Below, in pieces: positions 3,440 through 22,529 of a stretch of 44,066 nt of DNA. Numbering within the stretch: position 1 is the stretch's first letter; each line of letters opens with the position of its first letter. The notes below the pieces were generated by a model, which was given only the letters and a program-made list of their open reading frames with translations, searched no databases and was not told the origin of the DNA. A program made the position numbers and the translations under genes. Source of the stretch: a phage; NCBI GenBank assembly GCA_029093145.1, contig GCA_029093145.1_4347.1. One strand, 5' to 3'.

Positions 3440-4909
3440 ATGTTAACTATGAACGGTCAGAATCAGGGTGTTAAGACAAAACACCGGGAATGGCTGCATC
3501 ACTTCGATAAATGGCAGAAGGTACGCCACGCGCTGGAAGGCGACCTTATTCGCTATCTGCGCAACGTCGGGAAGAACGAACCTGACCCGACCTACGCAGC
3601 CCAGCGCCAGGAAGAATACGAGAACGGTGCTATCTGTTACAACTTCACTAAACGTACCCTGGCGGGGATGACGGGGTCAGTGATGCGCAAAGACCCTGAG
3701 CAGATTATCCCGCCTGAACTTGAGTACCTGTTGCACAACGCTGACGGTTCGGGTGTAGGGCTGTGGCAGCACGCGCAGGATACGTTAATGGAGATTGACT
3801 CGATAGGACGCGGTGGGTTGCTGGTGGATGCCCCGGAAACAGCCGCAGCAACGGCGGCAGAGCAGAACGCGGGATTATTAAACCCGGTAATCGCATTCTA
3901 TACCGCGGAGAACATTATCAACTGGAGACTCACCCGCATCGGTTCAGTGAACCGCGTGACGATGGTTGTATTGCGTGAGGCATGGGAATACTCGGAACCA
4001 GGCGCTGAGTTTGAAACAAAATTAGGCGAGCAATACCGCGTCCTTGACCTGATTGACGGTCGCTACCGCCAGCGCATCTACCGCTTCGATGCCGAAGGTG
4101 GTGCACAGGATGAAGTAATCGAAATCTTCCCGGAACTCGGCGAACAGTTGCGCGGTAAAATCCCGTTCACGTTCATTGGCGCAAGCAACAACGACGCCAC
4201 TATAGACGATGCGCCTTTACTGCCGTTAGCTGAGCTAAATATAGGACACTTCAGAAATTCGGCCGATGTGGAAGAGGCCAGCTTTATAGTAGGTCAACCG
4301 ACACTGTTCATTGCCCCCGGCGAGAACATGAGCATGGAGCAGTGGAAAGAAGCCAACCCACACGGCATACGCATGGGGTCGCGTTCAGGCCACAACATCG
4401 GCTCCGGCGGAAATGCGTTTCTGGTTCAGGCGGCGGAAACTAACCTCGCCAAACAGAATATGCTGGATAAAGAGAATCAGGCCATCCAGATTGGCGCGCA
4501 GCTTATCACCCCGACGCAGCAAATCACCGCGGAATCGGCCCGCCTGCAACGCGGCGCCGACACGTCAGTCATGGCAACAATAGCACGTAATGTAAGCATG
4601 GCGTATACCGATGCGTTGCGCTGGGTTGCGGGTATGCTTGGGCTTAGTGAAGATACTGAGATTGAATTCAAACTTAACATGGAGTTCTTCCTGCAACCGA
4701 TGACCGCTCAGGACCGTGCACAGTGGATGGCGGATATTAACGCGGGCCTGTTACCAGCTACTGCTTACTATGCGGCATTGCGTAAAGCAGGCGTAACCGA
4801 TTGGACCGATGAGGACATTCAGAACGCTATTGGGGACGCACCGCTGCCGTTGGGTGCGGTTGCTCAGGTAGCAGGAGAAATTCCGCAGTCCGCGCAACAA
4901 CAGGAGTAA
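3440..4909 (+). CDS. portal protein
   Basis: 489 aa ORF directly after terL with SD AGAGGA; canonical position. Confidence 0.8.
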   Translation: MLTMNGQNQGVKTKHREWLHHFDKWQKVRHALEGDLIRYLRNVGKNEPDPTYAAQRQEEYENGAICYNFTKRTLAGMTGSVMRKDPEQIIPPELEYLLHNADGSGVGLWQHAQDTLMEIDSIGRGGLLVDAPETAAATAAEQNAGLLNPVIAFYTAENIINWRLTRIGSVNRVTMVVLREAWEYSEPGAEFETKLGEQYRVLDLIDGRYRQRIYRFDAEGGAQDEVIEIFPELGEQLRGKIPFTFIGASNNDATIDDAPLLPLAELNIGHFRNSADVEEASFIVGQPTLFIAPGENMSMEQWKEANPHGIRMGSRSGHNIGSGGNAFLVQAAETNLAKQNMLDKENQAIQIGAQLITPTQQITAESARLQRGADTSVMATIARNVSMAYTDALRWVAGMLGLSEDTEIEFKLNMEFFLQPMTAQDRAQWMADINAGLLPATAYYAALRKAGVTDWTDEDIQNAIGDAPLPLGAVAQVAGEIPQSAQQQE

Positions 4910-4913
4910 ATAG

Positions 4914-4940
4914 AAAGGCCCCGCTAGGGGCCTTAGTTTT
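4914..4940. terminator. bidirectional terminator hairpin
   Basis: AGGCCCC-GCTA-GGGGCCT then TAGTTTT; sits between convergent genes. Confidence 0.6.
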
Positions 4941-5592
4941 AACGTATATTAGCCGCACATTTACGCACAACCCGAGGTATCGCCTCTTTCAGTTCACCCC
5001 ATGTATTAACGGCCTCCATGTCAAGAAGCGTCACCAGAGCTTTCTGGATGTCACTTCGCAACTGATTGGTCTTCGCATCCTGAGAGTCCCATGTATCGAA
5101 ACCCGTTACGTCGCGGATATCTACGGATTCCTTTACCGCTTTAGCCACCTGTATGAAGTGTCCACTGTGGCCAATTCTTCCCTCCGTGCGCTCGATCATT
5201 CGACTAACGGCAGCGTTAAGCTCGACAAAGCTCACCGCGCCAATGTTTCGTAGTTCTACCTGCCGTTGTGTGATAAAGCGGTCGATAACGAGGAAATGGA
5301 AATAGGCGCTGTATTGCTCAGCAATATATACTGCCAGATGGAGACATGCAAAGGTGCGACCGTTTCGGCCTTTCGTCGCCCTTATGGCATTCTCGATTCC
5401 GAGTTGTTTTTCGCATTCCTCCTTGAAAATCTTGAAGCCATCCGTTGCCATGACCTGGCGAAGCTCTCTGGCCCCCATGCCGTTGTCTAAACGCCAACGG
5501 TTCATCTGGTCAACCAGCTCGTTTACGTTAATAAAGTTTTCACGGTCAAAAGTGATTTCTCCATAAGGGAACTCTAATGTTTGCAGTTTCAT
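4939..5592 (-). CDS. KilA-N/APSES-type DNA-binding protein (antirepressor-like)
   Basis: N-terminal region resembles KilA-N pattern (INVNELVD ... GRTFACLHLAVYIAEQ); antisense to flanking structural genes; SD AGGAGA. Confidence 0.4.
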   Translation of the reverse strand: MKLQTLEFPYGEITFDRENFINVNELVDQMNRWRLDNGMGARELRQVMATDGFKIFKEECEKQLGIENAIRATKGRNGRTFACLHLAVYIAEQYSAYFHFLVIDRFITQRQVELRNIGAVSFVELNAAVSRMIERTEGRIGHSGHFIQVAKAVKESVDIRDVTGFDTWDSQDAKTNQLRSDIQKALVTLLDMEAVNTWGELKEAIPRVVRKCAANIR

Positions 5593-5620
5593 GTGTATTT
5601 CTCCTGTTTAAGTGTACGTT

Positions 5621-5648
5621 TAAATTCTACATTTGAATGTAGAATTTA
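5621..5648. promoter_or_regulatory. operator-like palindrome in divergent promoter region
   Basis: TAAATTCTACAT-TTGA-ATGTAGAATTTA, 12-bp perfect arms, between start of minus gene (5592) and plus gene (5735). Confidence 0.4.
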
Positions 5649-5734
5649 ATCAAGCTCTTTTTAACCTTAAATGCGTATGATTATGCCAATACGTTACCGA
5701 CTGATATGATTGTCATATCGAAACAGGAGGGTAT

Positions 5735-6778
5735 ATGAGCTTACTGACATCACTAATCAGCCACCAGATTTGGCTGCAACGCACCGCATCTGGTGAAGTG
5801 AAAGACCTAGCACCGTTCATTCAGGAGATGCGGGACGAAATAAAACGGCAGGTGCTGTTATTCGGTGACGACGGGCGAAGCACTGCCCGACTGAATAAAT
5901 TGTTACGCGACCTTGAAGAAGCACTGGTGAGGCTTACGGGCGACTGGCAGACAAAGCTGACAGAAGACCTTAAGGAACTGGCGGCGTATGAGGCTGAGTG
6001 GAACGTAAAGACACTGACCGCCAACGTAGACGCGGAATTTGTTACGCCTACCGCTGAGCAGGTATGGGCCGCTGCCGAGTTTCAACCATTATCATTGAGC
6101 GACAAGCCCGTTGATTTCACCAAGCTGATGTCTGGATGGGGTGAAACGGAAGTAGCACGTCTTGTAACTGGAGTTAAGATGGGCTTTGTGCAAGGTCAAA
6201 CCACACGGCAGATTGTTAAGAATGTTGTTGGCGCTGGTGGACTAGCCGACATCTCAGAACGTAACGCGACTACGGTAATCCGCACCGCGCTGTCCCACGT
6301 ATCCAACGAGGCCCGTAACGAGACGTACCGCCAGAACGACGACATCATCGAGAAATATGAGTGGGTGTCAACTTTGGACAGCCGTACCAGCACGATTTGC
6401 AGGGCCAGAGACGGAATGACGTGGGAAATCGGTAAAGGTCCGATGCCACCAGCCCATCCTAATTGCCGGTCGTGCACGGCTCCGGTAATCAGTTCCGAGT
6501 TCGACTTCCTCGATAAAGGCGCAAAACGCGCGGCTAAAGGCGCGGAAGGTGGCACTCAGGTAAGCGCAGACACCACTTACTACGAGTTCCTTAAACAACA
6601 ACCGGCGTGGTTTCAGGACCAGGCGCTCGGCCCGGTGCGAGGTAAGATTTTCCGTAACAGCGGTATATCGCCGGAAGAGTTTCGCGTAATATCTGTAGAT
6701 GGTTTCGGGAATCCGCTCACGCTTAAGCAGATGGCGGAACTCGATAAACGTGTTGCTGATTATCTGAAAGGGGAATAA
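5735..6778 (+). CDS. head morphogenesis protein (Mu F / SPP1 gp7-like, putative)
   Basis: 347 aa ORF after portal with SD AGGAGGG; canonical position of minor head morphogenesis protein. Confidence 0.6.
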   Translation: MSLLTSLISHQIWLQRTASGEVKDLAPFIQEMRDEIKRQVLLFGDDGRSTARLNKLLRDLEEALVRLTGDWQTKLTEDLKELAAYEAEWNVKTLTANVDAEFVTPTAEQVWAAAEFQPLSLSDKPVDFTKLMSGWGETEVARLVTGVKMGFVQGQTTRQIVKNVVGAGGLADISERNATTVIRTALSHVSNEARNETYRQNDDIIEKYEWVSTLDSRTSTICRARDGMTWEIGKGPMPPAHPNCRSCTAPVISSEFDFLDKGAKRAAKGAEGGTQVSADTTYYEFLKQQPAWFQDQALGPVRGKIFRNSGISPEEFRVISVDGFGNPLTLKQMAELDKRVADYLKGE

Positions 6779-12683: not shown

Positions 12684-13096
12684 TGGGCTACTTTGAGGAC
12701 TTAACAAAAGCGTTTGATGTGCCGCTGGTAGCCTTCGGAACCACCAACGGCATCAAGGTAGCGCTTGAAAACATCGACGCGCCGACGTCAACAGATACGC
12801 CGTATCTGGCAAGTTACATGTTGCTGGCGGATACCGAGCAGGCTGACTTATTCTTCACGGAACAACGCGCCGGTGTCTATCAGATAGACATTAACTACGC
12901 ATCGGTGAAAGGTAGCGCGCCAATCAATAAAATGGCAGACTTACTTAACACGGCGTTTAAATCAGGTAAGGCATTTTCGCGTAACGACATCTGCGCCGAG
13001 GTTCAATCGGTTAGCCTGGGGCCGCTGATTGTAGAAAACGGATGGGCCAAACGACCATTGTCAATTAACTTTATTGCATTCACCAAGAGGCTGTGA
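12680..13096 (+). CDS. tail-associated hypothetical protein
   Basis: Position immediately upstream of major tail gene. Confidence 0.4.
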   Translation: MMGYFEDLTKAFDVPLVAFGTTNGIKVALENIDAPTSTDTPYLASYMLLADTEQADLFFTEQRAGVYQIDINYASVKGSAPINKMADLLNTAFKSGKAFSRNDICAEVQSVSLGPLIVENGWAKRPLSINFIAFTKRL

Positions 13097-13098
13097 AT

Positions 13099-14265
13099 AT
13101 GGCTACAACTCCTTTTAAGGGCGCGAATACCGCGCAATTCTATGTGGCGGAAGTGACCCCGGGCGTAACACCGACTAACCCGGTATGGTCGCCACTGCGT
13201 AACACAGGCGGCGTTCCTGCCATTACCCGTGACACGCTGACCTCCAACGAACTTGACGGCAGCCGAGAAACCACATCCATCCGCACCGGTAACAAGCAGG
13301 TTAGCGGAGAATACGCTATTGAGCTTAGCTCTAAAAGTCAGGACGACTGGTTAGCCGGGGCTTTAGGCTCTACGTGGCAATCCGGCGTTTCCCTGTCAGG
13401 ACTATCGATTACCGTCGCACCCGCGGGCAAGACGTTCACACGCGCTACCGGCAGTTTTATCACTGACGGAGTTGGGGTAGGCGACCTGATTGCGTTTACC
13501 GATTTAACAGGCGATAACGTAAAACCATTTATTGTTACTGCAGTAACGGCTACGGTTGTTACTGGTGCGGGCATCCAACACACCCTGACCACCGAGACAA
13601 AAACTAGTAAGGCTAAAACTGGCGACACGTTGGAAACCGGTAACACGTGTAAGACGTTCTCTATCCTTACCTGGTACAAAGGCCAGTGCGGCGGTACTGA
13701 CGCGTACACGTTAACCAAAGGCGTGGAAGTTTCTGGTTTTACCATCGAACAGGCTGTTAACGCGATGGTAACTGGCAGCTTCCCATTCATCGGTCGCAGT
13801 CAGGAGATTCTCACTACGCCGCCGACCGGTTCCAACTTCTCATCTGTTACTTTTGGTGATGAGCCGTTCTCTTCGGTTGACGTTTCCGTGTTCGACGGCT
13901 CTACGCCGTTGCGTTGCGACAGCCTGACTATCACCAACGATAACAGCGCGTCCGCGCAGTTCGAACTTGGTAACACTAACGTAGCGTTTGTGGAGCGTAG
14001 CCGTGCAGCTAACACATTCTCTATCTCTGGCAAGCTGTACGACATGGCGATGATTCAGAAGTTTATCAACGAGCAGCAGGTAGAGATTAACTCTATTCTG
14101 GCAGGGGTAAACGGGGCTATGTCTTTCAGTTTGAAACGTGCAGAGCTTACGGCGGTTACACCTGAGATTGGTGGGCCTGAGTCAATCACTCAGTCCATTG
14201 AAGGCCAGGCTACCGGCAATCAGTACCAGTCGTCTATCGTAATTCAACGTATCACCTACGCATAA
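13099..14265 (+). CDS. major tail protein (putative)
   Basis: ~388 aa ORF upstream of chaperone/tape-measure region; SD AAGAGG before ATG 13099. Confidence 0.6.
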   Translation: MATTPFKGANTAQFYVAEVTPGVTPTNPVWSPLRNTGGVPAITRDTLTSNELDGSRETTSIRTGNKQVSGEYAIELSSKSQDDWLAGALGSTWQSGVSLSGLSITVAPAGKTFTRATGSFITDGVGVGDLIAFTDLTGDNVKPFIVTAVTATVVTGAGIQHTLTTETKTSKAKTGDTLETGNTCKTFSILTWYKGQCGGTDAYTLTKGVEVSGFTIEQAVNAMVTGSFPFIGRSQEILTTPPTGSNFSSVTFGDEPFSSVDVSVFDGSTPLRCDSLTITNDNSASAQFELGNTNVAFVERSRAANTFSISGKLYDMAMIQKFINEQQVEINSILAGVNGAMSFSLKRAELTAVTPEIGGPESITQSIEGQATGNQYQSSIVIQRITYA

Positions 14266-14296
14266 AACTAAGGCCCCTTTCGGGGCCTTTTTCTTA
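14265..14296. terminator. bidirectional terminator
   Basis: AAAACTAAGGCCCC-TTTC-GGGGCCTTTTTCTT; A-run and T-run on both sides of the hairpin. Confidence 0.65.
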
Positions 14297-14848
14297 CAAA
14301 CCTAATTTTAAAGCAATGTCTATAACGTTCGATTTAACGTCACCCGGTATGATGTAGGTGTCGTAATCTTTTACACCACTAACATCGTACAGATAGCCAC
14401 GGCTATCGCAGATGAACGTATAGCCGTCACGATGGAGGCGGACGATTCGCACGTCATGCCCCGCGGCGACGATAGGGGCAACTTCACTGGCGAATCCACC
14501 ATCGGACACTACAAAAACTTCGTCGCCGTCAGGCAAGTTTTCAGCAAGATACTTACCGAAATAATCATCGCCGAATACCGGTTTAATGAATTGCTCAGAA
14601 ATGGCAATCATTAACCGGCGGCGGGACAACCCATTAAGAAAACCCTCGGGTTTTTCTTTCCGCGCCCGGTCGTCGTAGCCGTCGAGAAATTCGTGGTAAG
14701 CATCCTGGCCTAACGCTGCCAAAGCAATATTGAACATTGGATTCTTGAAACTGGTAGTTCCTTTCGCAAAGCCCATTTCTACCAGCGCCATAGCAAGCGT
14801 GTCTTTCCCGCAACCCGCAGGGCCATTAAGAATAATTACCTTAGCCAT
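14294..14848 (-). CDS. P-loop kinase, dNMP-kinase-like
   Basis: Walker A GPAGCGKDT at N-terminus; SRRRLM segment recalled as typical of T4 gp1-type dNMP kinases. Confidence 0.65.
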   Translation of the reverse strand: MAKVIILNGPAGCGKDTLAMALVEMGFAKGTTSFKNPMFNIALAALGQDAYHEFLDGYDDRARKEKPEGFLNGLSRRRLMIAISEQFIKPVFGDDYFGKYLAENLPDGDEVFVVSDGGFASEVAPIVAAGHDVRIVRLHRDGYTFICDSRGYLYDVSGVKDYDTYIIPGDVKSNVIDIALKLGL

Positions 14849-15336
14849 TATTTATCGCTCCCGTGTGGTTTTAAGTGTGTAGAGTTCCCGTTACAGTCGT
14901 ATTCGGTAACTGCGTGTGCAGTTATGCCGAGGTCACGGAAATGCTTTATTACCGCTGGAGAGTCGTCGAACGCACACAAGATTCTTTCCAGTCCGAAAGC
15001 ACGCAACACCTCTTCTTTAATTACGATGTCTTTTCTGTTGTCGTGTTTGCTGCGCATGATTAGCGTGTCAAACCTAACGTTATTCTCTCGTAACCATTCG
15101 CGAGTCTCCTCCTCAGCGTCATCACTTCGCCCGGTAAGGATAATTATAGTAAGTCCGGAATGCCACAGTACGCTACACAAATGGATATTGTCGTATATCG
15201 GAGCGTCATCTTTGCAGGCCATGTTAAATGGCTTCCACGCCCACGTTTCTCCGTAGTTATCTTTTGGTAACAGGTGTAAGCGATGGGTACCGTCGGCCAA
15301 TGTCCCGTCTAAATCGAAAATTACAATATCTTTCAT
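14848..15336 (-). CDS. HAD-superfamily phosphatase (Pnk-phosphatase / 5'-nucleotidase-like)
   Basis: HAD motif I IVIFDLDGTLA, motif II ILTGR, motif IV AFDDS; overlaps flanking genes by 1-4 nt. Confidence 0.7.
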   Translation of the reverse strand: MKDIVIFDLDGTLADGTHRLHLLPKDNYGETWAWKPFNMACKDDAPIYDNIHLCSVLWHSGLTIIILTGRSDDAEEETREWLRENNVRFDTLIMRSKHDNRKDIVIKEEVLRAFGLERILCAFDDSPAVIKHFRDLGITAHAVTEYDCNGNSTHLKPHGSDK

Positions 15337-16463
15337 CCCAGCATCTCCGGTGAAATAGTTAAACGTGCGACCTCGCCATATTCGGCGCTATAAGTAATTA
15401 CATTTGCACTGCGGCCCGACATCCATCCGCCGCGAGAGGCGTAGGCGTCTTTAGCCGCTAAGGTGCGGTGTTGCTCAACAATCATGTTACGGCTTTCTAC
15501 AATCTTCTGGTGGTGCAGATGGCCTACGTGGGCGTAGCTGTAAACACTCTCGCCGAACGCTTTACGGAACTTGGCAATCATAACCGGTTCGATAGCGTCG
15601 AATCGTGCTTTATGCCCGTGATGGAAGAACAGCGTCGTTTTGCCGTGTTGCACCATCTTGTAAACATCCGGCGACGTATCAACAATCACTCGGCTGTCGT
15701 TTGAGTATAAAACCGTGAACATTTCAGCAAGCCATACGGAGCCAACAGGGTCGTGGTTACCTTGAACGATTAAAAGTTTTACTGTGTGATGCTTAACCAG
15801 CGCCATATCAACAACACGGCGGACCATACGAATCATGTAACGTACCAGTTTCTGATAGCGAGTATCCGCATCTAATACATGGCGCGACTCGGGGGTAACG
15901 GCATCAAGACTATCGAAGTGTGCGAAGTCCCCAAGCAGGTTAATAACTCCTGTTCCTGCATCCGGTGCTTTCTGAAACGCCGCGTCGAACCACCGAGAGA
16001 ACAGGTCTTCTGCAATCTTCATGTCCCAGTCGTCGCCGCTCTCATCGGCCCATGCCAGCATACCGAGATGGAAATCAGATACCGTGTAAAGATTGAGTAG
16101 TTTATCGTCACGTTTGGCGCGCGCCGCTTTAACAGGCGCAACGGGCGTAATCTCTGACTTCATGCCCTCTATTACGGCTTTCATCAATTCAACCTGACGT
16201 TCGGCGTCGGTATCAGTCTTAACCCATTGCAACTTAGTGTTGCCGAACTCGTCCACCAGGGACGACGTTCCTTTAATCTTGTAACCGTCTGGTACAAGGT
16301 GGCTAACGTCGCGCCCGTGGCCCACGCCTTTCTTAGCCAGCTTCGCTTTACGGATACGAATTACGCGGTCTGAGATGCCGTATTTACGGGCGATATCTAC
16401 ATTCTTCATACCGGCGTTCAATTCTTCCTGCAACTGTTCGTCGGTTATTTTCTTCCGGGCCAT
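15333..16463 (-). CDS. HTH-fused calcineurin-like metallophosphoesterase
   Basis: N-terminal HTH-like region; metallophosphoesterase motifs SDFHLG, GDFAHFD, GNHD, HHGH, GHLHH; SD GAGGAA. Confidence 0.65.
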   Translation of the reverse strand: MARKKITDEQLQEELNAGMKNVDIARKYGISDRVIRIRKAKLAKKGVGHGRDVSHLVPDGYKIKGTSSLVDEFGNTKLQWVKTDTDAERQVELMKAVIEGMKSEITPVAPVKAARAKRDDKLLNLYTVSDFHLGMLAWADESGDDWDMKIAEDLFSRWFDAAFQKAPDAGTGVINLLGDFAHFDSLDAVTPESRHVLDADTRYQKLVRYMIRMVRRVVDMALVKHHTVKLLIVQGNHDPVGSVWLAEMFTVLYSNDSRVIVDTSPDVYKMVQHGKTTLFFHHGHKARFDAIEPVMIAKFRKAFGESVYSYAHVGHLHHQKIVESRNMIVEQHRTLAAKDAYASRGGWMSGRSANVITYSAEYGEVARLTISPEMLG

Positions 16464-16500: not shown

Positions 16501-16692
16501 CTACTTCTCTTTCACGTTCGAGTTGCAAGCCCAGATTAAAATGAATACCCACGGCAACAGAATCCACCCGAGAAATAAGTTAGCCATGAATATCGCCAGC
16601 TTTGCTTTATGGTTACGCATATGTGCCACCAAAAACGGGATAAAATAAACGGCTACAAAAATAATTAAGAAGAACATAGTGATACCGGTCAT
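16501..16692 (-). CDS. small membrane protein resembling superinfection-immunity-type proteins
   Basis: Two hydrophobic segments with NLFLGWILLPWVFILIWA motif; SD AGGAG before ATG 16692 (track ORF extends to 16719). Confidence 0.4.
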   Translation of the reverse strand: MTGITMFFLIIFVAVYFIPFLVAHMRNHKAKLAIFMANLFLGWILLPWVFILIWACNSNVKEK

Positions 16693-16743
16693 AACATAAC
16701 TCCTGATTTGAGATAACATCGTTGGTGTAAGTGAATAGTACGC

Positions 16744-16772
16744 TATTATATTGGGGAGTGCAAGTAGTGTGC
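16744..16772 (-). promoter_or_regulatory. class B promoter TTGCAC-N17-TACTAT driving the accessory operon
   Basis: Minus strand TTGCACTCCCCAATATAATAGCGTACTATTCAC; dyad AATAG-N4-CTATT at 16743-16756. Confidence 0.5.
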
Positions 16773-16870: not shown

Positions 16871-17287
16871 TTGAAACTTTCTGATTTTTATTACGAAGCG
16901 GAAGCCGAAAAGGGCGCACGTATGCCGATACCGCTAAAAGACGGTACTGATTCCGGGGAATGGCTTAATGTTGTTTCTCCTGAGGCGGACGTTGCCGTTA
17001 AGGCTATGCGCGCGTTCACCCTTGCATACCGGGCAGTATTAGGGAAATTAAAACCGCTTCGTGATAAGTGCGAAGAGATGAAAGATTTCTCTGAATACAA
17101 CCTGAAGATGGAAGACGCGGCGACGGACCTTAACCGTCAGTTAGCGATTGAATTGGTTAACGGGTGGAGCCTTGACGACGAATTCAATAAAGAGAATCTG
17201 AACACACTCCTGACGCAATATAAACGACTCGCGGAACTTGTTGTTGTGTTTCATAACGAACAACTGCACCAGCTACAGGAAAAGTAG
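16871..17287 (+). CDS. tail assembly chaperone (gpG-like)
   Basis: Position immediately upstream of tape measure; TTG start with SD AAGGA. Confidence 0.55.
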   Translation: MKLSDFYYEAEAEKGARMPIPLKDGTDSGEWLNVVSPEADVAVKAMRAFTLAYRAVLGKLKPLRDKCEEMKDFSEYNLKMEDAATDLNRQLAIELVNGWSLDDEFNKENLNTLLTQYKRLAELVVVFHNEQLHQLQEK

Positions 17288-17652: not shown

Positions 17653-19984
17653 TGTAGCTAGTTTAGTAGTAAAAGTATCAGAGCAAGGCGCGAAAGCTAC
17701 ATCAGACCGTCTTGATAACCTTTCCAAGTCTGCAAAGGTAGCCGGAGCTGCGGTAGCGGGCCTCGCTTCCATCGTCGCCGCTACCGCTTACAAGGCCGCA
17801 CAGGAACTGGTAGAATCCCAACGGCAACTGGACAAGATGTCCGCCAGCCTGAAAACACTAACCGGAAGCACGCAGGGTGCAAGACAGGCGTTAAGCATCC
17901 TGCAAGACTTCGCGCGCGACACTCCGTATGGCCTTGAACAGGCGGTAGAGGGATTCCGTAAACTTGTGGCGCTTGGTCTTACACCGTCAGAAGAAGCGTT
18001 GCGTTCCTACGGAAACACCGCCGCTGCTATGGGTAAAGACCTGAATCAGATGATTGAGGCGGTTGCAGACGCTAGTACTTTTGAATTTGAGCGCCTTAAA
18101 GAATTTGGTATCAAGGCCAAACAGAACAAAAACGATGTTGAATTTACATTCCAGGGTACTACTACGGTAGTTAAGAAGAGCGCTGCCGACATCGAGCAAT
18201 ACCTGCTCAACATCGGTAACGTAAACTTCGCGGGGGCTATGGCGGACCAGGCCAACACACTTAACGGGGCCATCGCCAGTGCCAGCGACTCATGGTCGCA
18301 GTTAAAAATGACACTGGCTACCAGTCTTGATGTTGGTGCGCTCGCCGAACCTATCCGATACATCGATGATTTAATCCAGGAACTTAACGCACAGGTTGCA
18401 TCCGGTGAACTTGCCGCAGAGATGCGTATGTGGGGTGACATCGCGTCGGAAGTAGGAAGCGCGATAGAGATGTCGTTCGACGCGGCATTTGGTTTTGTAG
18501 GTGACGCGATAAATGGACTGAATGAACTTTGGGATTTTAGCAGTAAAAGTATCACCGATAGCGGCGAACAAACGGCGACAACCATCGCGGAATCAGCTGC
18601 CGATGCGCTCGATTTCATCGCGGAAGAATTTACCGCGATGGAGCGCTTCTTTGAAGATATGGTTAAAGGGGCACAGGATGCTGGCCGGTTGGTGAAAGCT
18701 GCCTTCACACCAGGGGAATCTGTAGACGTAGCAAAAAACATTAACTTCCAGCTAGGGATGGCACTGGATACTCAGCGCGATGTTGCGGACCTGACCCGTA
18801 AAAGTTTCCGCGAACAGGTGGAGGCTCAGCAAAATATCGTCGCGCTTAAACGCGCAGCGTATGACATCGACAAAGAAGCCGCTAAGGAAGAAGGGCTTAG
18901 TAAATTTAAGGTAACTGGTGCTGGTGGCGGGTCCGAAGATGATAACGCTGGTGCAAAAGCCGCCAAGAAAGCTGCGGATGCGTTCGAGCGCCAGAAGAAA
19001 GCCGCCGAGGATTTCTACTACCAGTCGATTCATCTCAATGATGACGTATTCCAGAAAATAGAAGCCAACCAGGAACAGCAGTTAACCAAGCTACAAGAGT
19101 TTTACAGCAACCAGCTTCTTAGCGACCAGCAATACGAGAACGCCAAGACGCAGATTATGCTGGAGGCGGACACCGCACGTCAGGAAGAATTGGATAAGCG
19201 CGAGAAAGAACGGCAGGAGAAAAAGCAGAAAGGCGACGACTTCATGGCTCAGATTATGGGCCAGAACGCTACTGAGCTTGAGCTTCTCGACATCCAGGAA
19301 CAGCAGAAACTGGCGGTAGCCGATAAGTACCGTGAGCAGGGTCTTATTAGTGAGAAGCAGTATCAGGCTGCGCTTAATGCCATCAACGAGCAGTACGCCA
19401 CGAAGCGTGCCGACGCAACGGCAACGGCCTTCGGTAACATGGCCTCAAACATCGGTTCGGCTTTGGGCGAGGCTTCTGGCGCGTACAAGGCATTCGCTAT
19501 CGTGCAGGCCACTATAGCCACGTACACCGCGGCTATTGAGGCGTATAAGTCAACAGCGGCTATCCCTGTAGTTGGCCCGTTCCTGGCTCCTGTAGCTGCC
19601 GCTGCTGCCGTTGGGGCGGGTATGGCTCAGGTTTCCGCTATCAGGTCAGCACGTGAACAGGGCGGTCAGTTATCAGCGGGACAGGCTTCCACCATCGCCG
19701 AGCGCGGAAAACCAGAAGTTATCATGCCTGCGGGTGCATCGCGTGTGCGCACCGCGCAGCAGATGAAAGAAATTATGGGGCAAAACGGCGGCAGTACCGG
19801 ACCAGCCAATATCAGCATTATAAATAACACCAGTGCACAAATTGGCAACACCAGCGTTGAACAGGACGAAGAAGGCCGCCTACGTATCATCATCGAAGAA
19901 CAGGTAGCCGCCTCTTTGCAGAATAGCAACAGCAAAATATCGAAAGCGAGGAAGGCTACAAGAAACGCACCGGGCTTTAAGTAG
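17645..19984 (+). CDS. tape measure protein
   Basis: 779 aa, Ala/Gln/Glu-rich, follows chaperone pair. Confidence 0.85.
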   Translation: MADVASLVVKVSEQGAKATSDRLDNLSKSAKVAGAAVAGLASIVAATAYKAAQELVESQRQLDKMSASLKTLTGSTQGARQALSILQDFARDTPYGLEQAVEGFRKLVALGLTPSEEALRSYGNTAAAMGKDLNQMIEAVADASTFEFERLKEFGIKAKQNKNDVEFTFQGTTTVVKKSAADIEQYLLNIGNVNFAGAMADQANTLNGAIASASDSWSQLKMTLATSLDVGALAEPIRYIDDLIQELNAQVASGELAAEMRMWGDIASEVGSAIEMSFDAAFGFVGDAINGLNELWDFSSKSITDSGEQTATTIAESAADALDFIAEEFTAMERFFEDMVKGAQDAGRLVKAAFTPGESVDVAKNINFQLGMALDTQRDVADLTRKSFREQVEAQQNIVALKRAAYDIDKEAAKEEGLSKFKVTGAGGGSEDDNAGAKAAKKAADAFERQKKAAEDFYYQSIHLNDDVFQKIEANQEQQLTKLQEFYSNQLLSDQQYENAKTQIMLEADTARQEELDKREKERQEKKQKGDDFMAQIMGQNATELELLDIQEQQKLAVADKYREQGLISEKQYQAALNAINEQYATKRADATATAFGNMASNIGSALGEASGAYKAFAIVQATIATYTAAIEAYKSTAAIPVVGPFLAPVAAAAAVGAGMAQVSAIRSAREQGGQLSAGQASTIAERGKPEVIMPAGASRVRTAQQMKEIMGQNGGSTGPANISIINNTSAQIGNTSVEQDEEGRLRIIIEEQVAASLQNSNSKISKARKATRNAPGFK

Positions 19985-19987
19985 TAA

Positions 19988-20022
19988 CAAAAAAAAAAAT
20001 AAGGCCCGAAAGGGCCTTATTT
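19988..20022. terminator. bidirectional terminator (A10 / hairpin / T-run)
   Basis: AAAAAAAAAAT-AAGGCCC-GAAA-GGGCCTT-ATTTAT. Confidence 0.7.
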
Positions 20023-20835
20023 ATGCGGAACTTTAGGCTTCACTCCGTCCCTACAAAGGGCCAAAATCTCTGGAATTATCTTAGGGTCTGAGGTTAGCAT
20101 CCACTCCGTGGATCCGTCGAAGCTGCCATAGCCCCACTCATTCGACGCTATTTTGTAAGTGTTATGGAAATACACTTCTAGCATTCGTATTTTTGCGCCG
20201 TTATCGTCGCGATGAATGCCAAGCACTTCGAAACCAAAGGGGGTAGCGTTACGCAGGTGACGTATCCGCTGTTTAGGCCTGTTTGATATCCCTATCTTCA
20301 CGAATCGGCCGCATTCACTAAGTAACGCATAGAGGAACCCAGTTTTATTAGGGTCGTACCCGCTAGAGGCACATCCAGGACATCCTTGATTCTGATGAAT
20401 GATATCTGCTATTCGCTGGCTAAACTCACCATGGATATCGCAAAGCCGCACCGCTTTGCTATACTGATTCTTATACCCTCCTTCGAAGCGCAAGAACTTC
20501 CACTTATCACTCACGGCGTAAATCTGCGAGATGCGTTCCTCCTCTGAGTATGAAGGTCTTCCCGCGCAACTAGGACACCCATGTTCCTTACTAATTGCGT
20601 TAGCTATCAAAGTGTCGAACTCCCCGTGTTCGGGACAGAGCCTACGTACCTTAGAATAGGCGTTTCGATAGCCGTTAGGAAATCCTACAAAACTGTATTG
20701 CGGGGCTACCTTAGCTAGTTCCTCTACTACATTGCTCTCAGGTTTTCGCTGTTTGCTTGATGAAGATTCTTTTCCACACCTAGGGCACCCAATACCTTTT
20801 TTTAATACTAGCGGCCGTTGCCGAGAAAGCCCCAT
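20017..20835 (-). CDS. T5orf172 (GIY-YIG-like) domain protein with tandem zinc-ribbon repeats; homing-endonuclease-like
   Basis: Two repeats Y(R/K)N(A/Q)YSK-(V/A)(R/V)(R/L)C-x2-HGEF ... HGCPxC; C-terminal GFLYALLSECGRFVKIGISNRPKQRIRHL resembles T5orf172; antisense between tail genes. Confidence 0.6.
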   Translation of the reverse strand: MGLSRQRPLVLKKGIGCPRCGKESSSSKQRKPESNVVEELAKVAPQYSFVGFPNGYRNAYSKVRRLCPEHGEFDTLIANAISKEHGCPSCAGRPSYSEEERISQIYAVSDKWKFLRFEGGYKNQYSKAVRLCDIHGEFSQRIADIIHQNQGCPGCASSGYDPNKTGFLYALLSECGRFVKIGISNRPKQRIRHLRNATPFGFEVLGIHRDDNGAKIRMLEVYFHNTYKIASNEWGYGSFDGSTEWMLTSDPKIIPEILALCRDGVKPKVPHK

Positions 20836-21122
20836 GTTCGCGGCAAAATAGGGTTATCTTACTAAACGCACCTGTATACCCCGCACCATCGTCCAACAAC
20901 TCGTATTTACCGCCGTGGTTGGCTAAATCAGCTAATATCCTCTCGCGGCGCTCAGGCTATAGTATTTTCCGGCACATAATCAACCTCAATAAAGAGTATT
21001 AACTAGTATACTATTCAACCATGGGGCCCGGGTCAACATAAACGTCGTGATGTTACGCCCCCTCCATGGTAGCATTGGCTTAAAGTTATTGCGATGGTAT
21101 CCAATCTACCGGGGTTTAAATA

Positions 21123-22529
21123 ATGAGCGACTTATACTTTCCACGTAGCCTTAAGCCGGTGGTATCAAAAGGCTACTCAATGACCAGACGTAACAACGTC
21201 TGGAGTGTCGATTTAGCGGGTGGCGGGGTGCGTCAGGGCCGTGACACGTATTATGATGTGTTCCCAATAAGCGTAACCCTGATTACATCCGCAATGGGGC
21301 GGCAGGCGTTTCTGTCGTTCCTCGAGAAAGTCGATGGTGGCGCGTCAAGTTTCTGGATGGCGCACGACTTCGGCATGGGTATTGAGGATTATCAAGTCAC
21401 CATTACATCCACCGTCGCCGAGTCCACTGAAGACGGCATTAACTGGACGATTACTTTCACGGCAACCGCCGAGAAATCACCGTTCCAGGACCTTGAGAAC
21501 CAGTGCCTGATTAACAATCTGCCAGATTTGTACGGCTGCTATGGTGACTGCCTGGGTAGTTTCCTGAAAATATACGCTAACTATGAGACGACGTTCCCGC
21601 GCATCTGGAGCAATGAAGGGCCTGCAGGATACCCGCCGATTAACCTTCTGGCATCCACGCTTGATAGCCGCATTGTGTATGATGGACCACAGGTTTACTA
21701 CATCAACAGAAACGGTAATCTTGTGCAGTCAGCAACTAATGAATGGCCTCTTACGTTTATTAATGGGGTTGCTGTTGGGCGAGTTCCGCCTGAGGATGAA
21801 TCAACAAATAGTATCTTATATTCTGCAGACTTCAATAATTCATCGTGGAGTAGAACAAGGATAACAGTTGAGAATGACGTTTTATCTTCCCCTCTCATGC
21901 ATAGTCTTGCCGACAAGTTAGTGGCAACATCAGTAAATGGAGCGCACGGATTAACTCAACCAATACTACCAATCGGCTCAAATGAGTACTCTGTTAGCTT
22001 TTTCATTAAAGCTGGTGGTCTGGGGAAATCTCTTGTGCAAATAGGGACATTTTCAAGCCAGACCAACCCTAACCCAGTAACTATTGACCTTATCAGCGGA
22101 GTTATAACGTCAGCCAATGATTTCACAAGATGCGGAATATTACCTATCTCAGATGACTGGTATTTCGTCTGGACATCATCAACAACAACTTCATCACCAA
22201 GCAATATCCGGGCTGCGTGTTTTCTTACCGATCAATCAGGTAATACCACATTTACAGGAAATGATGTGGATGGTATCTATCTATGGGGAGCAAAATTAGA
22301 AAAATCAGAATTTGCCACTTCGCCAATAATAACCAATTCTTCTGCTGTAACCCGCCAAGCGGCATCGGCAAAAGTAGTAATGAACGACGCAATAAGCATC
22401 GACATAACCTATTCCGACGGCTCTGTGGTAAACGTTCAGGCTGTTGACGGTTATGCCGCCATCCCCCAAGCGGATTCTTCGTGGGGCAGTAAATACATCA
22501 CTCGTATCGACTTTAATGTGGGCGGTTAA
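21123..22529 (+). CDS. minor/distal tail protein (putative)
   Basis: 468 aa ORF first after tape measure; ATG with upstream GGGG. Confidence 0.5.
   Translation: MSDLYFPRSLKPVVSKGYSMTRRNNVWSVDLAGGGVRQGRDTYYDVFPISVTLITSAMGRQAFLSFLEKVDGGASSFWMAHDFGMGIEDYQVTITSTVAESTEDGINWTITFTATAEKSPFQDLENQCLINNLPDLYGCYGDCLGSFLKIYANYETTFPRIWSNEGPAGYPPINLLASTLDSRIVYDGPQVYYINRNGNLVQSATNEWPLTFINGVAVGRVPPEDESTNSILYSADFNNSSWSRTRITVENDVLSSPLMHSLADKLVATSVNGAHGLTQPILPIGSNEYSVSFFIKAGGLGKSLVQIGTFSSQTNPNPVTIDLISGVITSANDFTRCGILPISDDWYFVWTSSTTTSSPSNIRAACFLTDQSGNTTFTGNDVDGIYLWGAKLEKSEFATSPIITNSSAVTRQAASAKVVMNDAISIDITYSDGSVVNVQAVDGYAAIPQADSSWGSKYITRIDFNVGG

What the first reader, a model, noticed from the sequence alone, without database searches (positions are those of the whole stretch)
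14294..16463. Kinase plus two unrelated phosphoesterases: end-healing-like enzyme set without a ligase
A P-loop kinase, a HAD phosphatase (DxDGT, similar in pattern to the T4 Pnk phosphatase domain) and a binuclear metallophosphoesterase fused to an HTH are co-transcribed. Kinase/phosphatase pairs of this kind heal 5'-OH and 3'-phosphate or 2',3'-cyclic phosphate ends in RNA repair, but no ligase is seen in the window. The metallophosphoesterase could alternatively hydrolyse cyclic nucleotide signals. The HTH fusion on a phosphoesterase is unusual.
Basis: inference. Interest (0 to 1): 0.6.

Follow-up and report, generated by a model that had tools for sequence, protein, structure and literature searches.

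The report
Phage nucleotide-handling cassette, not RNA repair
The three genes are real and sit in one operon of a Kagunavirus phage, but the kinase is a relative of the phage T4 nucleotide (dNMP) kinase rather than an end-healing kinase, so this is most likely an ordinary, widely shared DNA and nucleotide turnover module and not a ligase-less RNA repair system.

Summary
Three overlapping minus-strand genes at 14294-16463 encode a P-loop kinase, a DxDGT HAD phosphatase and an HTH-metallophosphoesterase (MPE). With an upstream Imm-like gene they form an operon inserted between tail genes of a Kagunavirus. The window has no ligase.

- **HAD:** it is a Pnkp-clade phosphatase and keeps the residues that align with T4 Pnkp's catalytic ones.
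- **MPE:** it is closest to the PolD-DP1, Mre11 and SbcD nucleases. The HTH fusion is the rule in a family of about 4,500 sequence clusters. It is a core gene in Guernseyvirinae and Drexlerviridae.
- **HAD and kinase as a pair:** they are an optional add-on, present in about one in five close relatives.

The same MPE-HAD-kinase order recurs in T1-like phages, and in Era103-like phages with a DNA ligase after the kinase. In rV5-like phages the kinase pairs with an NT5C-type nucleotidase next to thymidylate synthase and ribonucleotide reductase genes.

The most likely function is mononucleotide salvage or pool balancing alongside a DNA phosphodiesterase. No activity has been tested. The module is already annotated and has been described in T1-like phages.

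The parts
16501..16719 (-). Imm-like superinfection-immunity membrane protein (72 aa); probable first gene of the operon
   Evidence: PF14373 Imm_superinfect 50.6 bits against a cutoff of 27.9; phrog_1039 E 3e-24. This slot is variable in relatives.
16745..16750 (-). Candidate -10 hexamer (TATAAT) upstream of the imm-like gene; no good -35 element
   Evidence: Read from the sequence. The consensus promoter scan did not call it, so it is weak evidence only.
15333..16463 (-). HTH-metallophosphoesterase (376 aa), phrog_704; the conserved anchor gene of the locus
16329..16463 (-). N-terminal three-helix HTH domain of the MPE protein (aa 1-45)
   Evidence: Helices 8-16, 21-28 and 32-44 at pLDDT 93-95. 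Weak GerE/LuxR-type matches. hhalign to lambda NinH gives 53% probability.
16158..16283 (-). Conserved beta-hairpin plus helix (aa 61-102) between the HTH and the catalytic domain
   Evidence: Strands 61-70 and 76-85, helix 87-102. G74, W80 and K82 are nearly invariant.
15336..16109 (-). Binuclear metallophosphoesterase catalytic domain (aa 119-376)
   Evidence: Invariant D130 H132 G178 D179 N236 H237 H282 G314 H317. Pfam Metallophos_2 scores 22 bits and Metallophos 17 bits, both below their cutoffs. Fold matches.
14848..15336 (-). Stand-alone Pnkp-clade HAD phosphatase (162 aa), phrog_415
   Evidence: PF25109 HAD_PNKP 73.1 bits against a cutoff of 27.6. PDB 4xrp Pnkp1 E 4e-6 and T4 Pnk E 2e-4. 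In the alignment with T4 Pnkp, D8, D10, R19, G69, R70, D99, R101, D124 and D125 are invariant.
14294..14848 (-). T4 gp1-type (Dek-like) dNMP kinase homologue (184 aa), phrog_139
14270..14289 (.). Bidirectional intrinsic terminator between the tail tube gene (+) and the kinase gene (-)
   Evidence: 8-bp stem with 6 G-C pairs, followed by T runs on both strands.

Best explanation
The region is a four-gene, minus-strand accessory operon (imm-like, HTH-MPE, HAD, kinase) inserted between the tail tube and tail-chaperone genes of a Kagunavirus.

It holds two functional units.

1. **The HTH-MPE.** This is a lineage-core, stand-alone binuclear phosphodiesterase whose nearest structural neighbours are DNA nucleases (PolD-DP1, Mre11, SbcD). 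It most likely binds DNA through its HTH and the conserved hairpin and cuts DNA. It does not need the other two genes.
2. **The HAD phosphatase and kinase pair.** This is a translationally coupled, optional pair that most likely acts on mononucleotides. The kinase would convert dNMPs to dNDPs for phage DNA synthesis. The phosphatase would remove phosphates that block that route, or drain unwanted nucleotides, for example 3'-phosphorylated nucleotides or particular dNMPs.

Together the genes would turn DNA breakdown products into usable precursors. This is not RNA end healing.

**Shown:** gene structure, family assignments, distribution and gene linkage.
**Inferred:** every substrate and the direction of flux.
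For: - **Second HAD clade.** In Vequintavirinae the homologous kinase is followed by a different HAD clade, an NT5C-type deoxyribonucleotidase (PF06941). The pair sits beside thymidylate synthase and ribonucleotide reductase genes (ThyX plus ThyA in APECc02, ThyA in phiTE).
- **Nucleotide-metabolism neighbour.** In LIMEzero-like phages the HAD is followed by a protein with a dATP/dGTP diphosphohydrolase N-terminal domain (PF18909).
- **HAD-kinase linkage.** 66 of 80 kinase-anchored loci and 65 of 79 HAD-anchored loci carry both genes, same strand, HAD first.
- **MPE independence.** In the MPE-anchored set, most loci (61 of 80), including several with a 92-95% identical MPE, have neither a HAD nor a kinase. 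In public phage genomes 53 records carry a kinase at >=80% identity, against 286 with an MPE at >=80% identity.
- **MPE fold neighbours.** DP1, Mre11 and SbcD.
- **Independent description.** A 2026 study of 522 Drexlerviridae found the 'DNA repair exonuclease' persistent. It found PNK plus dNMP kinase to be the commonest genes after it where the SH3 gene is lacking, and proposed a nucleotide-supply role (PMC13164509).
- **Precedents.** Bacterial MPE+HAD pairs act on mononucleotides. A phage MPE degrades host DNA (PMC12287305).
Against: - **HAD clade.** The HAD belongs to the Pnkp 3'-phosphatase clade, not to a known 5'-nucleotidase clade. It keeps the residues that align with T4 Pnkp's essential ones, so a polynucleotide 3'-end substrate remains plausible.
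- **Ligase in relatives.** In Era103-like phages a DNA ligase directly follows the kinase. That arrangement would suit an end-processing pathway.
- **Differences from T4 gp1.** The kinase lacks an insertion of roughly 35-50 residues present in T4 gp1. It has DGGF where T4 has DTRQ, so its substrate could differ.
- **No other nucleotide genes.** A 95%-identical annotated relative lists no thymidylate synthase, ribonucleotide reductase or other nucleotide-metabolism gene.
- **Sampling.** The sampled loci come from a few enterobacterial phage lineages and are not independent.
- **No direct data.** No expression or biochemical data exist.
Confidence: 0.5

Rival explanations
1. **DNA end healing and repair.** The HAD removes 3'-phosphates from nicks or ends in phage DNA. 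These could be made by the MPE itself or by host nucleases. The ends are then extended or sealed by host LigA, or by the phage's own DNA ligase in Era103-like relatives. The Dek-like kinase would either have been recruited as a 5'-OH kinase or simply supply precursors.
For: - The HAD is a Pnkp-clade phosphatase and keeps the residues that align with T4 Pnkp's catalytic ones.
- HAD directly follows the MPE in four phage backgrounds: Kagunavirus, Webervirus, Era103-like and LIMEzero-like.
- The order MPE-HAD-kinase-DNA ligase occurs in Era103, phiEa1H, phiEa100 and Nifs112.
- P. putida MPE is a nuclease of this superfamily that leaves a mixture of 3'-PO4 and 3'-OH ends (PMC7826289, abstract).
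Against: - The kinase shows no similarity to Pnk-type kinases beyond the P-loop.
- All ligase-linked loci appear to belong to one or two Autographiviridae-type lineages (contigs of about 44-45 kb), so they may reflect a single event. Phage T7 also places its ligase close to a nucleotide kinase (own knowledge).
- The HAD and kinase are dispensable in most close relatives.
Confidence: 0.2
2. **Counter-defence by removing nucleotide signals.** The HAD and kinase clear dNMPs such as m6dAMP, which accumulate when host DNA is degraded and which trigger the Metis and PUA-Cal-HAD defence systems. Alternatively, the MPE hydrolyses cyclic nucleotide immune signals.
For: - The cassette lies in a variable accessory slot next to a superinfection-immunity gene.
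- The HAD and kinase are patchily distributed among near-identical phages, as is typical of anti-defence genes.
- m6dAMP is a defence trigger, and a bacterial HAD (MisB) inactivates it by dephosphorylation.
- The kinase pairs with two different HAD clades.
Against: - There is no direct evidence.
- The window HAD is not close to MisB's Pfam family (HAD_2 E 0.067).
- The three proteins have no PADLOC matches.
- The MPE is a core gene, not an accessory one, and its nearest folds are nucleases rather than cyclic-nucleotide phosphodiesterases.
- It is not known whether Kagunavirus degrades host DNA.
Confidence: 0.1
3. **RNA (tRNA) end healing.** The kinase and phosphatases would heal 5'-OH and 2',3'-cyclic phosphate ends made by host ribonucleases. 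A host ligase would then seal them.
For: - The HAD is homologous to the phosphatase domains of T4 Pnkp and of Pnkp1 from a bacterial RNA repair system.
- In Clostridium thermocellum Pnkp a binuclear MPE serves as the 2',3'-phosphoesterase (PMC2190708 and PMC3675462, abstracts).
Against: - The kinase is Dek-like, not Pnk-like.
- There is no RNA ligase in the window, nor near any of the 79 HAD-anchored loci.
- The ligase found in relatives is a DNA ligase.
- The host RtcB uses unhealed ends (established knowledge).
Confidence: 0.04
4. **The HTH-MPE is mainly a DNA-binding regulator or a packaging or late-gene factor.** Its phosphoesterase activity would serve a regulatory role. The HAD and kinase would be unrelated passengers.
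For: - The N-terminal HTH resembles sigma-70 region 4 and LuxR-type domains.
- There is a weak match to a late transcriptional activator PHROG (E 6e-4).
- The gene sits directly upstream of late functions: the lysis cassette in Drexlerviridae, terminase genes in JL1-like (Dhillonvirus-type) contigs, and antiterminator Q in lambdoid contigs.
Against: - All nine catalytic-motif residues are invariant across 70 diverse members, so catalysis is under selection.
- In Kagunavirus the gene is not next to lysis or packaging genes.
- The HTH matches are all weak.
Confidence: 0.08

Closest known systems
Phage T4 gp1 deoxynucleoside monophosphate kinase (Dek; PDB 1DEK; phrog_139)
   Different: The window protein is 184 aa against 241 aa. 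It lacks an internal insertion of T4 gp1 and has DGGF where T4 has DTRQ. Its substrate is untested. It is usually partnered with a HAD phosphatase, which T4 gp1 is not.
3'-phosphatase domain of phage T4 polynucleotide kinase-phosphatase (PseT) and of Capnocytophaga Pnkp1
   Same: PF25109 HAD_PNKP. PDB sequence hits 4xrp, 5uj0 and 1ltq. The DxDGT nucleophile motif and the Arg, Gly-Arg, Asp, Arg and Asp-Asp positions are conserved in the alignment with T4 Pnkp. The T4 Pnkp C-terminal domain also hits phrog_415.
   Different: It is a stand-alone protein of 162 aa with no fused Pnk kinase domain. It carries an insertion of about 16 residues after motif I relative to T4. No RNA ligase partner is present. 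Its neighbour is a dNMP-kinase homologue.
Mre11 / SbcD nucleases and the archaeal PolD DP1 proofreading exonuclease
   Different: Sequence identity is only 12-18%, and profile searches of the PDB give E values above 0.2. No Rad50/SbcC-type ATPase partner is annotated in a close relative. The protein has its own N-terminal HTH and a conserved hairpin, and a family-specific block (T190, P191, L197, D198, R202) between motifs II and III.
MPE-PNK-dNMP kinase module of T1-like phages (Drexlerviridae), e.g. Klebsiella phage KP36 gp63-65
   Same: Same three families in the same order, closed by a terminator. Protein identities to the window are 41% for the MPE, 57% for the HAD and 42% for the kinase. 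The module is described in PMC13164509.
   Different: It lies in a different genome position, between replication/methylase genes and the lysis cassette rather than inside the tail module, and has no imm-like gene.
Clostridium thermocellum Pnkp (kinase-MPE-ligase) and lambda phosphatase NinI
   Same: A P-loop kinase and a binuclear MPE occur together. In lambdoid contigs the HTH-MPE occupies the slot between NinG and Q that NinH and NinI occupy in lambda.
Bacterial Metis (MisA MPE + MisB HAD) and PUA-Calcineurin-HAD defence systems
   Same: An MPE-superfamily protein and a HAD phosphatase are encoded together. In both systems the substrates are mononucleotides.
   Different: These are host defence systems, not phage genes, and neither includes a kinase. 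The window proteins have no PADLOC hits. The resemblance is in composition only.

Membership tests
T4 gp1-type dNMP kinase (phrog_139) | Significant match to the family profile that contains the biochemically characterised T4 gp1 | tested here: met
   Window kinase E 3e-44; T4 gp1 E 1.8e-65; both to phrog_139.
T4 gp1-type dNMP kinase (phrog_139) | Full-length fold and profile similarity to T4 gp1, including the G-K-D P-loop | tested here: met
T4 gp1-type dNMP kinase (phrog_139) | Phosphorylation of dNMPs | not testable with these tools
   Needs an enzyme assay. Context in Vequintavirinae, next to thymidylate synthase and ribonucleotide reductase genes, is suggestive only.
Pnkp-type end-healing enzyme (T4 PseT-like kinase-phosphatase) | Pnk-type 5'-kinase domain | tested here: not met
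Pnkp-type end-healing enzyme (T4 PseT-like kinase-phosphatase) | DxDxT HAD 3'-phosphatase domain with the conserved catalytic and phosphate-binding residues | tested here: met
   PF25109 73.1 bits against 27.6. D8, D10, R19, G69, R70, D99, R101, D124 and D125 are invariant with T4 Pnkp.
Pnkp-type end-healing enzyme (T4 PseT-like kinase-phosphatase) | Partner RNA ligase in the same genome | tested here: not met
   No ligase in the window or in the annotated relative. Relatives carry a DNA ligase, not an RNA ligase.
Pnkp-type end-healing enzyme (T4 PseT-like kinase-phosphatase) | 3'-phosphatase activity on polynucleotide ends | not testable with these tools
   Needs an enzyme assay.
Binuclear metallophosphoesterase superfamily | Five metal-binding motifs (DxH, GD, GNH[DE], H, GHxH) on the calcineurin-like fold | tested here: met
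Mre11/SbcD nuclease family | Sequence-level family membership and a Rad50/SbcC ATPase partner | tested here: not met
   Profile against the PDB gives E 0.28-1 for SbcD and Mre11. No SMC-like ATPase is annotated in the 95%-identical relative. These are structural neighbours only.
Lambda phosphatase / Clostridium thermocellum Pnkp phosphoesterase clade | Family-level similarity to NinI-type phosphatases | tested here: not met
Mycobacteriophage Bxb1 gp47 / A10ZJ24 gp48 MPE (phrog_221) | Family-level similarity | tested here: not met
   hhalign probability 5.7%, with matches only at motifs III-V. It is in a different PHROG.
T4 Imm superinfection immunity (PF14373) | Match above the Pfam gathering score | tested here: met
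   50.6 bits against 27.9 for the ORF at 16501-16719.

The most novel reading that the evidence does not exclude
The optional HAD phosphatase plus Dek-like kinase pair is a counter-defence device. It would keep free dNMPs low while the phage breaks down host DNA, in particular Dam-methylated m6dAMP, the alarm signal sensed by the recently described Metis and PUA-Calcineurin-HAD systems. It would do this by phosphorylating dNMPs upward and dephosphorylating what the kinase cannot use. This reading would explain three findings: the pair is patchily distributed among near-identical phages, it sits in a variable accessory slot beside a superinfection-immunity gene, and the same kinase is paired with two unrelated HAD clades in different phage families.
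Probability: 0.08. Interest if true: 0.75.

Novelty: new member of a known kind. Interest (0 to 1): 0.3.

Why it matters
**As a finding it is mostly a clarification.** A tempting story of RNA repair without a ligase is replaced by a more ordinary reading. The same gene set is already annotated in hundreds of public phage genomes and was recently described for T1-like phages.

**Two points still merit attention.**
- The HTH-MPE is a very large family: about 4,500 clusters at 50% identity, and 2,038 of 50,697 phage records. It is a core gene of two major groups of therapeutic coliphages and Klebsiella or Salmonella phages, yet it has no tested function.
- A T4 gp1-like kinase is repeatedly coupled to a HAD phosphatase of one clade or another. 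This pattern can be tested directly with natural phage variants that differ only by this pair. It may connect to newly found defences that sense or deplete deoxynucleotides.

Tried and rejected
- **Sequence searches of the PDB.** The single kinase sequence and two family profiles gave only P-loop matches. The relation to T4 gp1 appeared only with a structure model and with hhalign.
- **Pfam, NCBIfam and PADLOC.** These gave nothing useful for the kinase or the MPE.
- **The search for homologous proteins with the MPE.** It returned only relatives at >=94% identity. The representative search was needed to reach diverse members.
- **Promoter.** The consensus promoter scan found no promoter for the operon. 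Only a lone TATAAT was seen by eye.
- **Same family as the Bxb1 gp47 or A10ZJ24 gp48 host-DNA-degrading MPE?** Rejected.
- **Fusion of lambda NinH and NinI?** Rejected. Only a generic HTH resemblance to NinH (53% probability) and none to NinI.
- **Base-replacement scheme (phosphatase removes a canonical dNMP, kinase is specific for a modified one)?** Set aside. The annotated close relative has no nucleotide-modifying enzyme other than a DNA methyltransferase.
- **NT5C-type HADs in the other loci.** Found only in the two Vequintavirinae loci.
Full report
**What the window is.** A 3-kb stretch around the finding is 97% identical to Escherichia phage vB_EcoS-22664BS2. It is 86-96% identical to many Kagunavirus genomes of about 44 kb, so the window is essentially a whole Guernseyvirinae phage genome. 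An annotated 95%-identical relative lists a helicase-primase, an exonuclease, a DNA polymerase, a resolvase, a methyltransferase, a helicase and a primase. It lists no ligase and no nucleotide-metabolism genes.

**The observation.**
- MPE: 15333-16463, 376 aa.
- HAD: 14848-15336, 162 aa.
- Kinase: 14294-14848, 184 aa.

The junctions overlap, ATGA between MPE and HAD and TAATG between HAD and kinase. A bidirectional terminator at 14270-14289 separates the kinase from the convergent tail tube gene.

Upstream, on the same strand, lies a 72-aa T4 Imm-like superinfection-immunity gene at 16501-16719 (PF14373, 50.6 bits). A lone TATAAT precedes it. No consensus promoter was called, so the transcription start is not established. 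The whole block is inverted between the tail tube gene (13093-14265) and the tail-assembly chaperone gene (16871-17287). A profile of 19 phage DNA ligases and T4 Rnl1 find nothing in the window.

**The kinase.**
- Pfam sees only a P-loop, and PDB sequence searches see nothing more.
- PHROGs places it in phrog_139 'dNMP kinase' (E 3e-44). I checked that T4 gp1, the characterised enzyme, falls in the same PHROG (E 2e-65).
- hhalign of the family against T4 gp1 aligns 173 columns at 92% probability, including the unusual GKD P-loop. Against T4 Pnkp it aligns only 27 P-loop columns.

The kinase is therefore a T4 gp1 (Dek) homologue. It differs from T4 gp1 by lacking an internal insertion and by having DGGF where T4 has DTRQ. 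Its substrate is therefore not certain.

**The HAD.**
- It matches PF25109, the Pnkp phosphatase domain, at 73 bits against a cutoff of 27.6.
- It matches phrog_415 at E 3e-64, and the C-terminal part of the full-length Pnkp family phrog_505.
- Its only PDB sequence relatives are Pnkp1 and T4 Pnk.
- In an alignment with T4 Pnkp, the nucleophile motif DxDGT and the Arg, Gly-Arg, Asp, Arg and Asp-Asp positions are invariant.

The protein is stand-alone and has an extra 16 residues or so after motif I.

**The MPE.**
- It belongs to phrog_704 (E 1e-162).
- The family is very large: 4,554 clusters at 50% identity with E<=0.001, typically 375-400 aa, and 2,038 of 50,697 phage records.
- Nine catalytic-motif residues are invariant in 70 diverse members.
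- The model (pLDDT 93) shows an N-terminal three-helix HTH, a conserved hairpin plus helix, and the catalytic domain.
- It is not in the family of lambda NinI or of Bxb1 gp47.

The HTH fusion is the rule in this family, not an oddity.

**Are the three genes a unit?** I anchored searches of viral contigs on each gene in turn.
- **MPE-anchored (80 loci).** The MPE is the constant gene. Even contigs with a 92-95% identical MPE often lack the HAD and kinase. In their place they carry nothing, a 76-aa ORF, or ORFs of 203 or 223 aa.
- **Public phage genomes.** 53 records have a kinase at >=80% identity, against 286 with an MPE at >=80% identity.
- **More distant MPE loci.** Most (61 of 80) have neither partner. 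In high-GC lambdoid contigs the gene lies between NinG and antiterminator Q. In other contigs it lies before terminase genes or after a FEN-type exonuclease.
- **Kinase-anchored (80 loci).** 66 have the HAD upstream on the same strand, 28 have MPE-HAD-kinase, and 15 have a T7-like ATP-dependent DNA ligase directly after the kinase.
- **HAD-anchored (79 loci).** 65 have the kinase downstream, 40 have the MPE upstream, and 12 have the HAD alone. None has a Pnk-type kinase or an RNA ligase nearby.

The same order, MPE-HAD-kinase, occurs in Klebsiella phage KP36 of the Drexlerviridae. It also occurs in Erwinia phages Era103, phiEa1H and phiEa100 and in Pantoea phage Nifs112, there followed by the ligase. 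A 2026 paper on 522 Drexlerviridae independently reports the 'DNA repair exonuclease' as persistent. It reports PNK plus dNMP kinase as the commonest genes after it where the SH3 gene is lacking, and suggests a nucleotide-supply role (PMC13164509). These samples come from a few enterobacterial phage lineages and are not independent.

**Which way does the evidence point?** The strongest discriminating result comes from the rV5-like phages, APECc02 and phiTE. There the homologous kinase is directly followed by a different HAD clade, an NT5C-type deoxyribonucleotidase (PF06941). The pair sits next to thymidylate synthase and ribonucleotide reductase genes (ThyX plus ThyA in APECc02, ThyA in phiTE). 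In LIMEzero-like phages the Pnkp-type HAD is followed by a protein with a dATP/dGTP diphosphohydrolase N-terminal domain.

A kinase of the dNMP-kinase family that keeps a HAD partner across clades, in nucleotide-metabolism surroundings, argues for mononucleotide substrates. Bacterial MPE+HAD pairs that act on mononucleotides give a precedent for this gene composition. A mycobacteriophage MPE that degrades host DNA gives a precedent for a phage MPE nuclease.

Three points count against this reading. The HAD is of the 3'-phosphatase clade. A DNA ligase follows the cassette in one lineage, so a DNA end-processing role is the main rival. Phage T7 also keeps its ligase close to a nucleotide kinase (own knowledge), which weakens the ligase argument.

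RNA repair is the least supported reading, for three reasons. The kinase is of the wrong family, and no RNA ligase occurs in the window or near any of the HAD-anchored loci.

**Verdict.** The domain calls are right and the operon is real. The set is best read as two units.
- A core HTH-MPE, a probable DNA phosphodiesterase.
- An optional phosphatase and dNMP-kinase pair for nucleotide handling.

The module is already annotated widely. One GenBank record even names an 'HTH and metallophosphatase domains containing protein' followed by 'putative phosphatase', 'deoxynucleoside monophosphate kinase' and 'DNA ligase'. No function has been tested for any of the three proteins. Confidence in the mechanism is therefore moderate at best.

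Noticed in passing
window 16501-16719 (-): A T4 Imm-like superinfection-immunity gene (72 aa, PF14373) heads the same minus-strand block. In relatives this upstream slot instead holds an ORF of 108-109 aa that begins with a hydrophobic, signal-peptide-like stretch (L012, L018), or is empty.
   Followed up: partly
L009, L012, L015, L017, L018, L041 (about 5100-6200 in each locus): The slot between the MPE gene and the tail tube gene is a hot spot for variation in Guernseyvirinae. It holds HAD plus kinase, a 76-aa ORF, a 203-aa or 223-aa ORF, or nothing, while the MPE stays 85-95% identical.
   Followed up: partly
L036, L037, L038, L039, L040, L046, L047 and others: In high-GC lambdoid-type contigs the HTH-MPE often has a NinG gene upstream (for example L037, L047) and an antiterminator Q gene directly downstream (L038, L039, L040, L046, L047). 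That is the position occupied in lambda by NinH (a small HTH protein) followed by NinI (an MPE phosphatase). The domain order of the fusion mirrors that gene order, but no homology to NinI was detected.
   Followed up: yes
L057 and L073 (about 4000-6300): Two tandem copies of the HTH-MPE gene (about 378 aa each) lie side by side in these contigs.
   Followed up: no
L139, L140, L141, L149, L152, L155, L234; Era103 record positions 18021-21313: In Erwinia and Pantoea SP6-like phages the cassette is MPE-HAD-kinase followed by a T7-like ATP-dependent DNA ligase that directly follows, and in most loci overlaps, the kinase gene. Nine further contigs have kinase-ligase without the HAD or MPE.
   Followed up: partly
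L004 4995-6196; L251 3495-4752: In rV5-like phages (Vequintavirinae) the kinase homologue overlaps a downstream NT5C-type HAD nucleotidase (phrog_420, annotated as unknown function). The pair is next to thymidylate synthase and ribonucleotide reductase genes.
   Followed up: yes
L249 3189-4887: In Kuravirus the kinase homologue is 297 aa, with an N-terminal extension of about 100 aa of unknown nature. It overlaps a FEN-type 5'-3' exonuclease gene.
   Followed up: no
L187, L195, L200, L203, L206-L208, L220, L226, L227, L240, L244: A group of phage contigs of about 37-45 kb carries the Pnkp-type HAD (54-59% identical to the window's) with neither the kinase nor the MPE within 4 kb. Their lineage and the HAD's neighbours were not examined.
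   Followed up: no
window 14270-14289: A perfect 8-bp G+C-rich hairpin with T runs on both sides serves as a shared terminator for the convergent tail tube gene and the kinase operon.
   Followed up: yes
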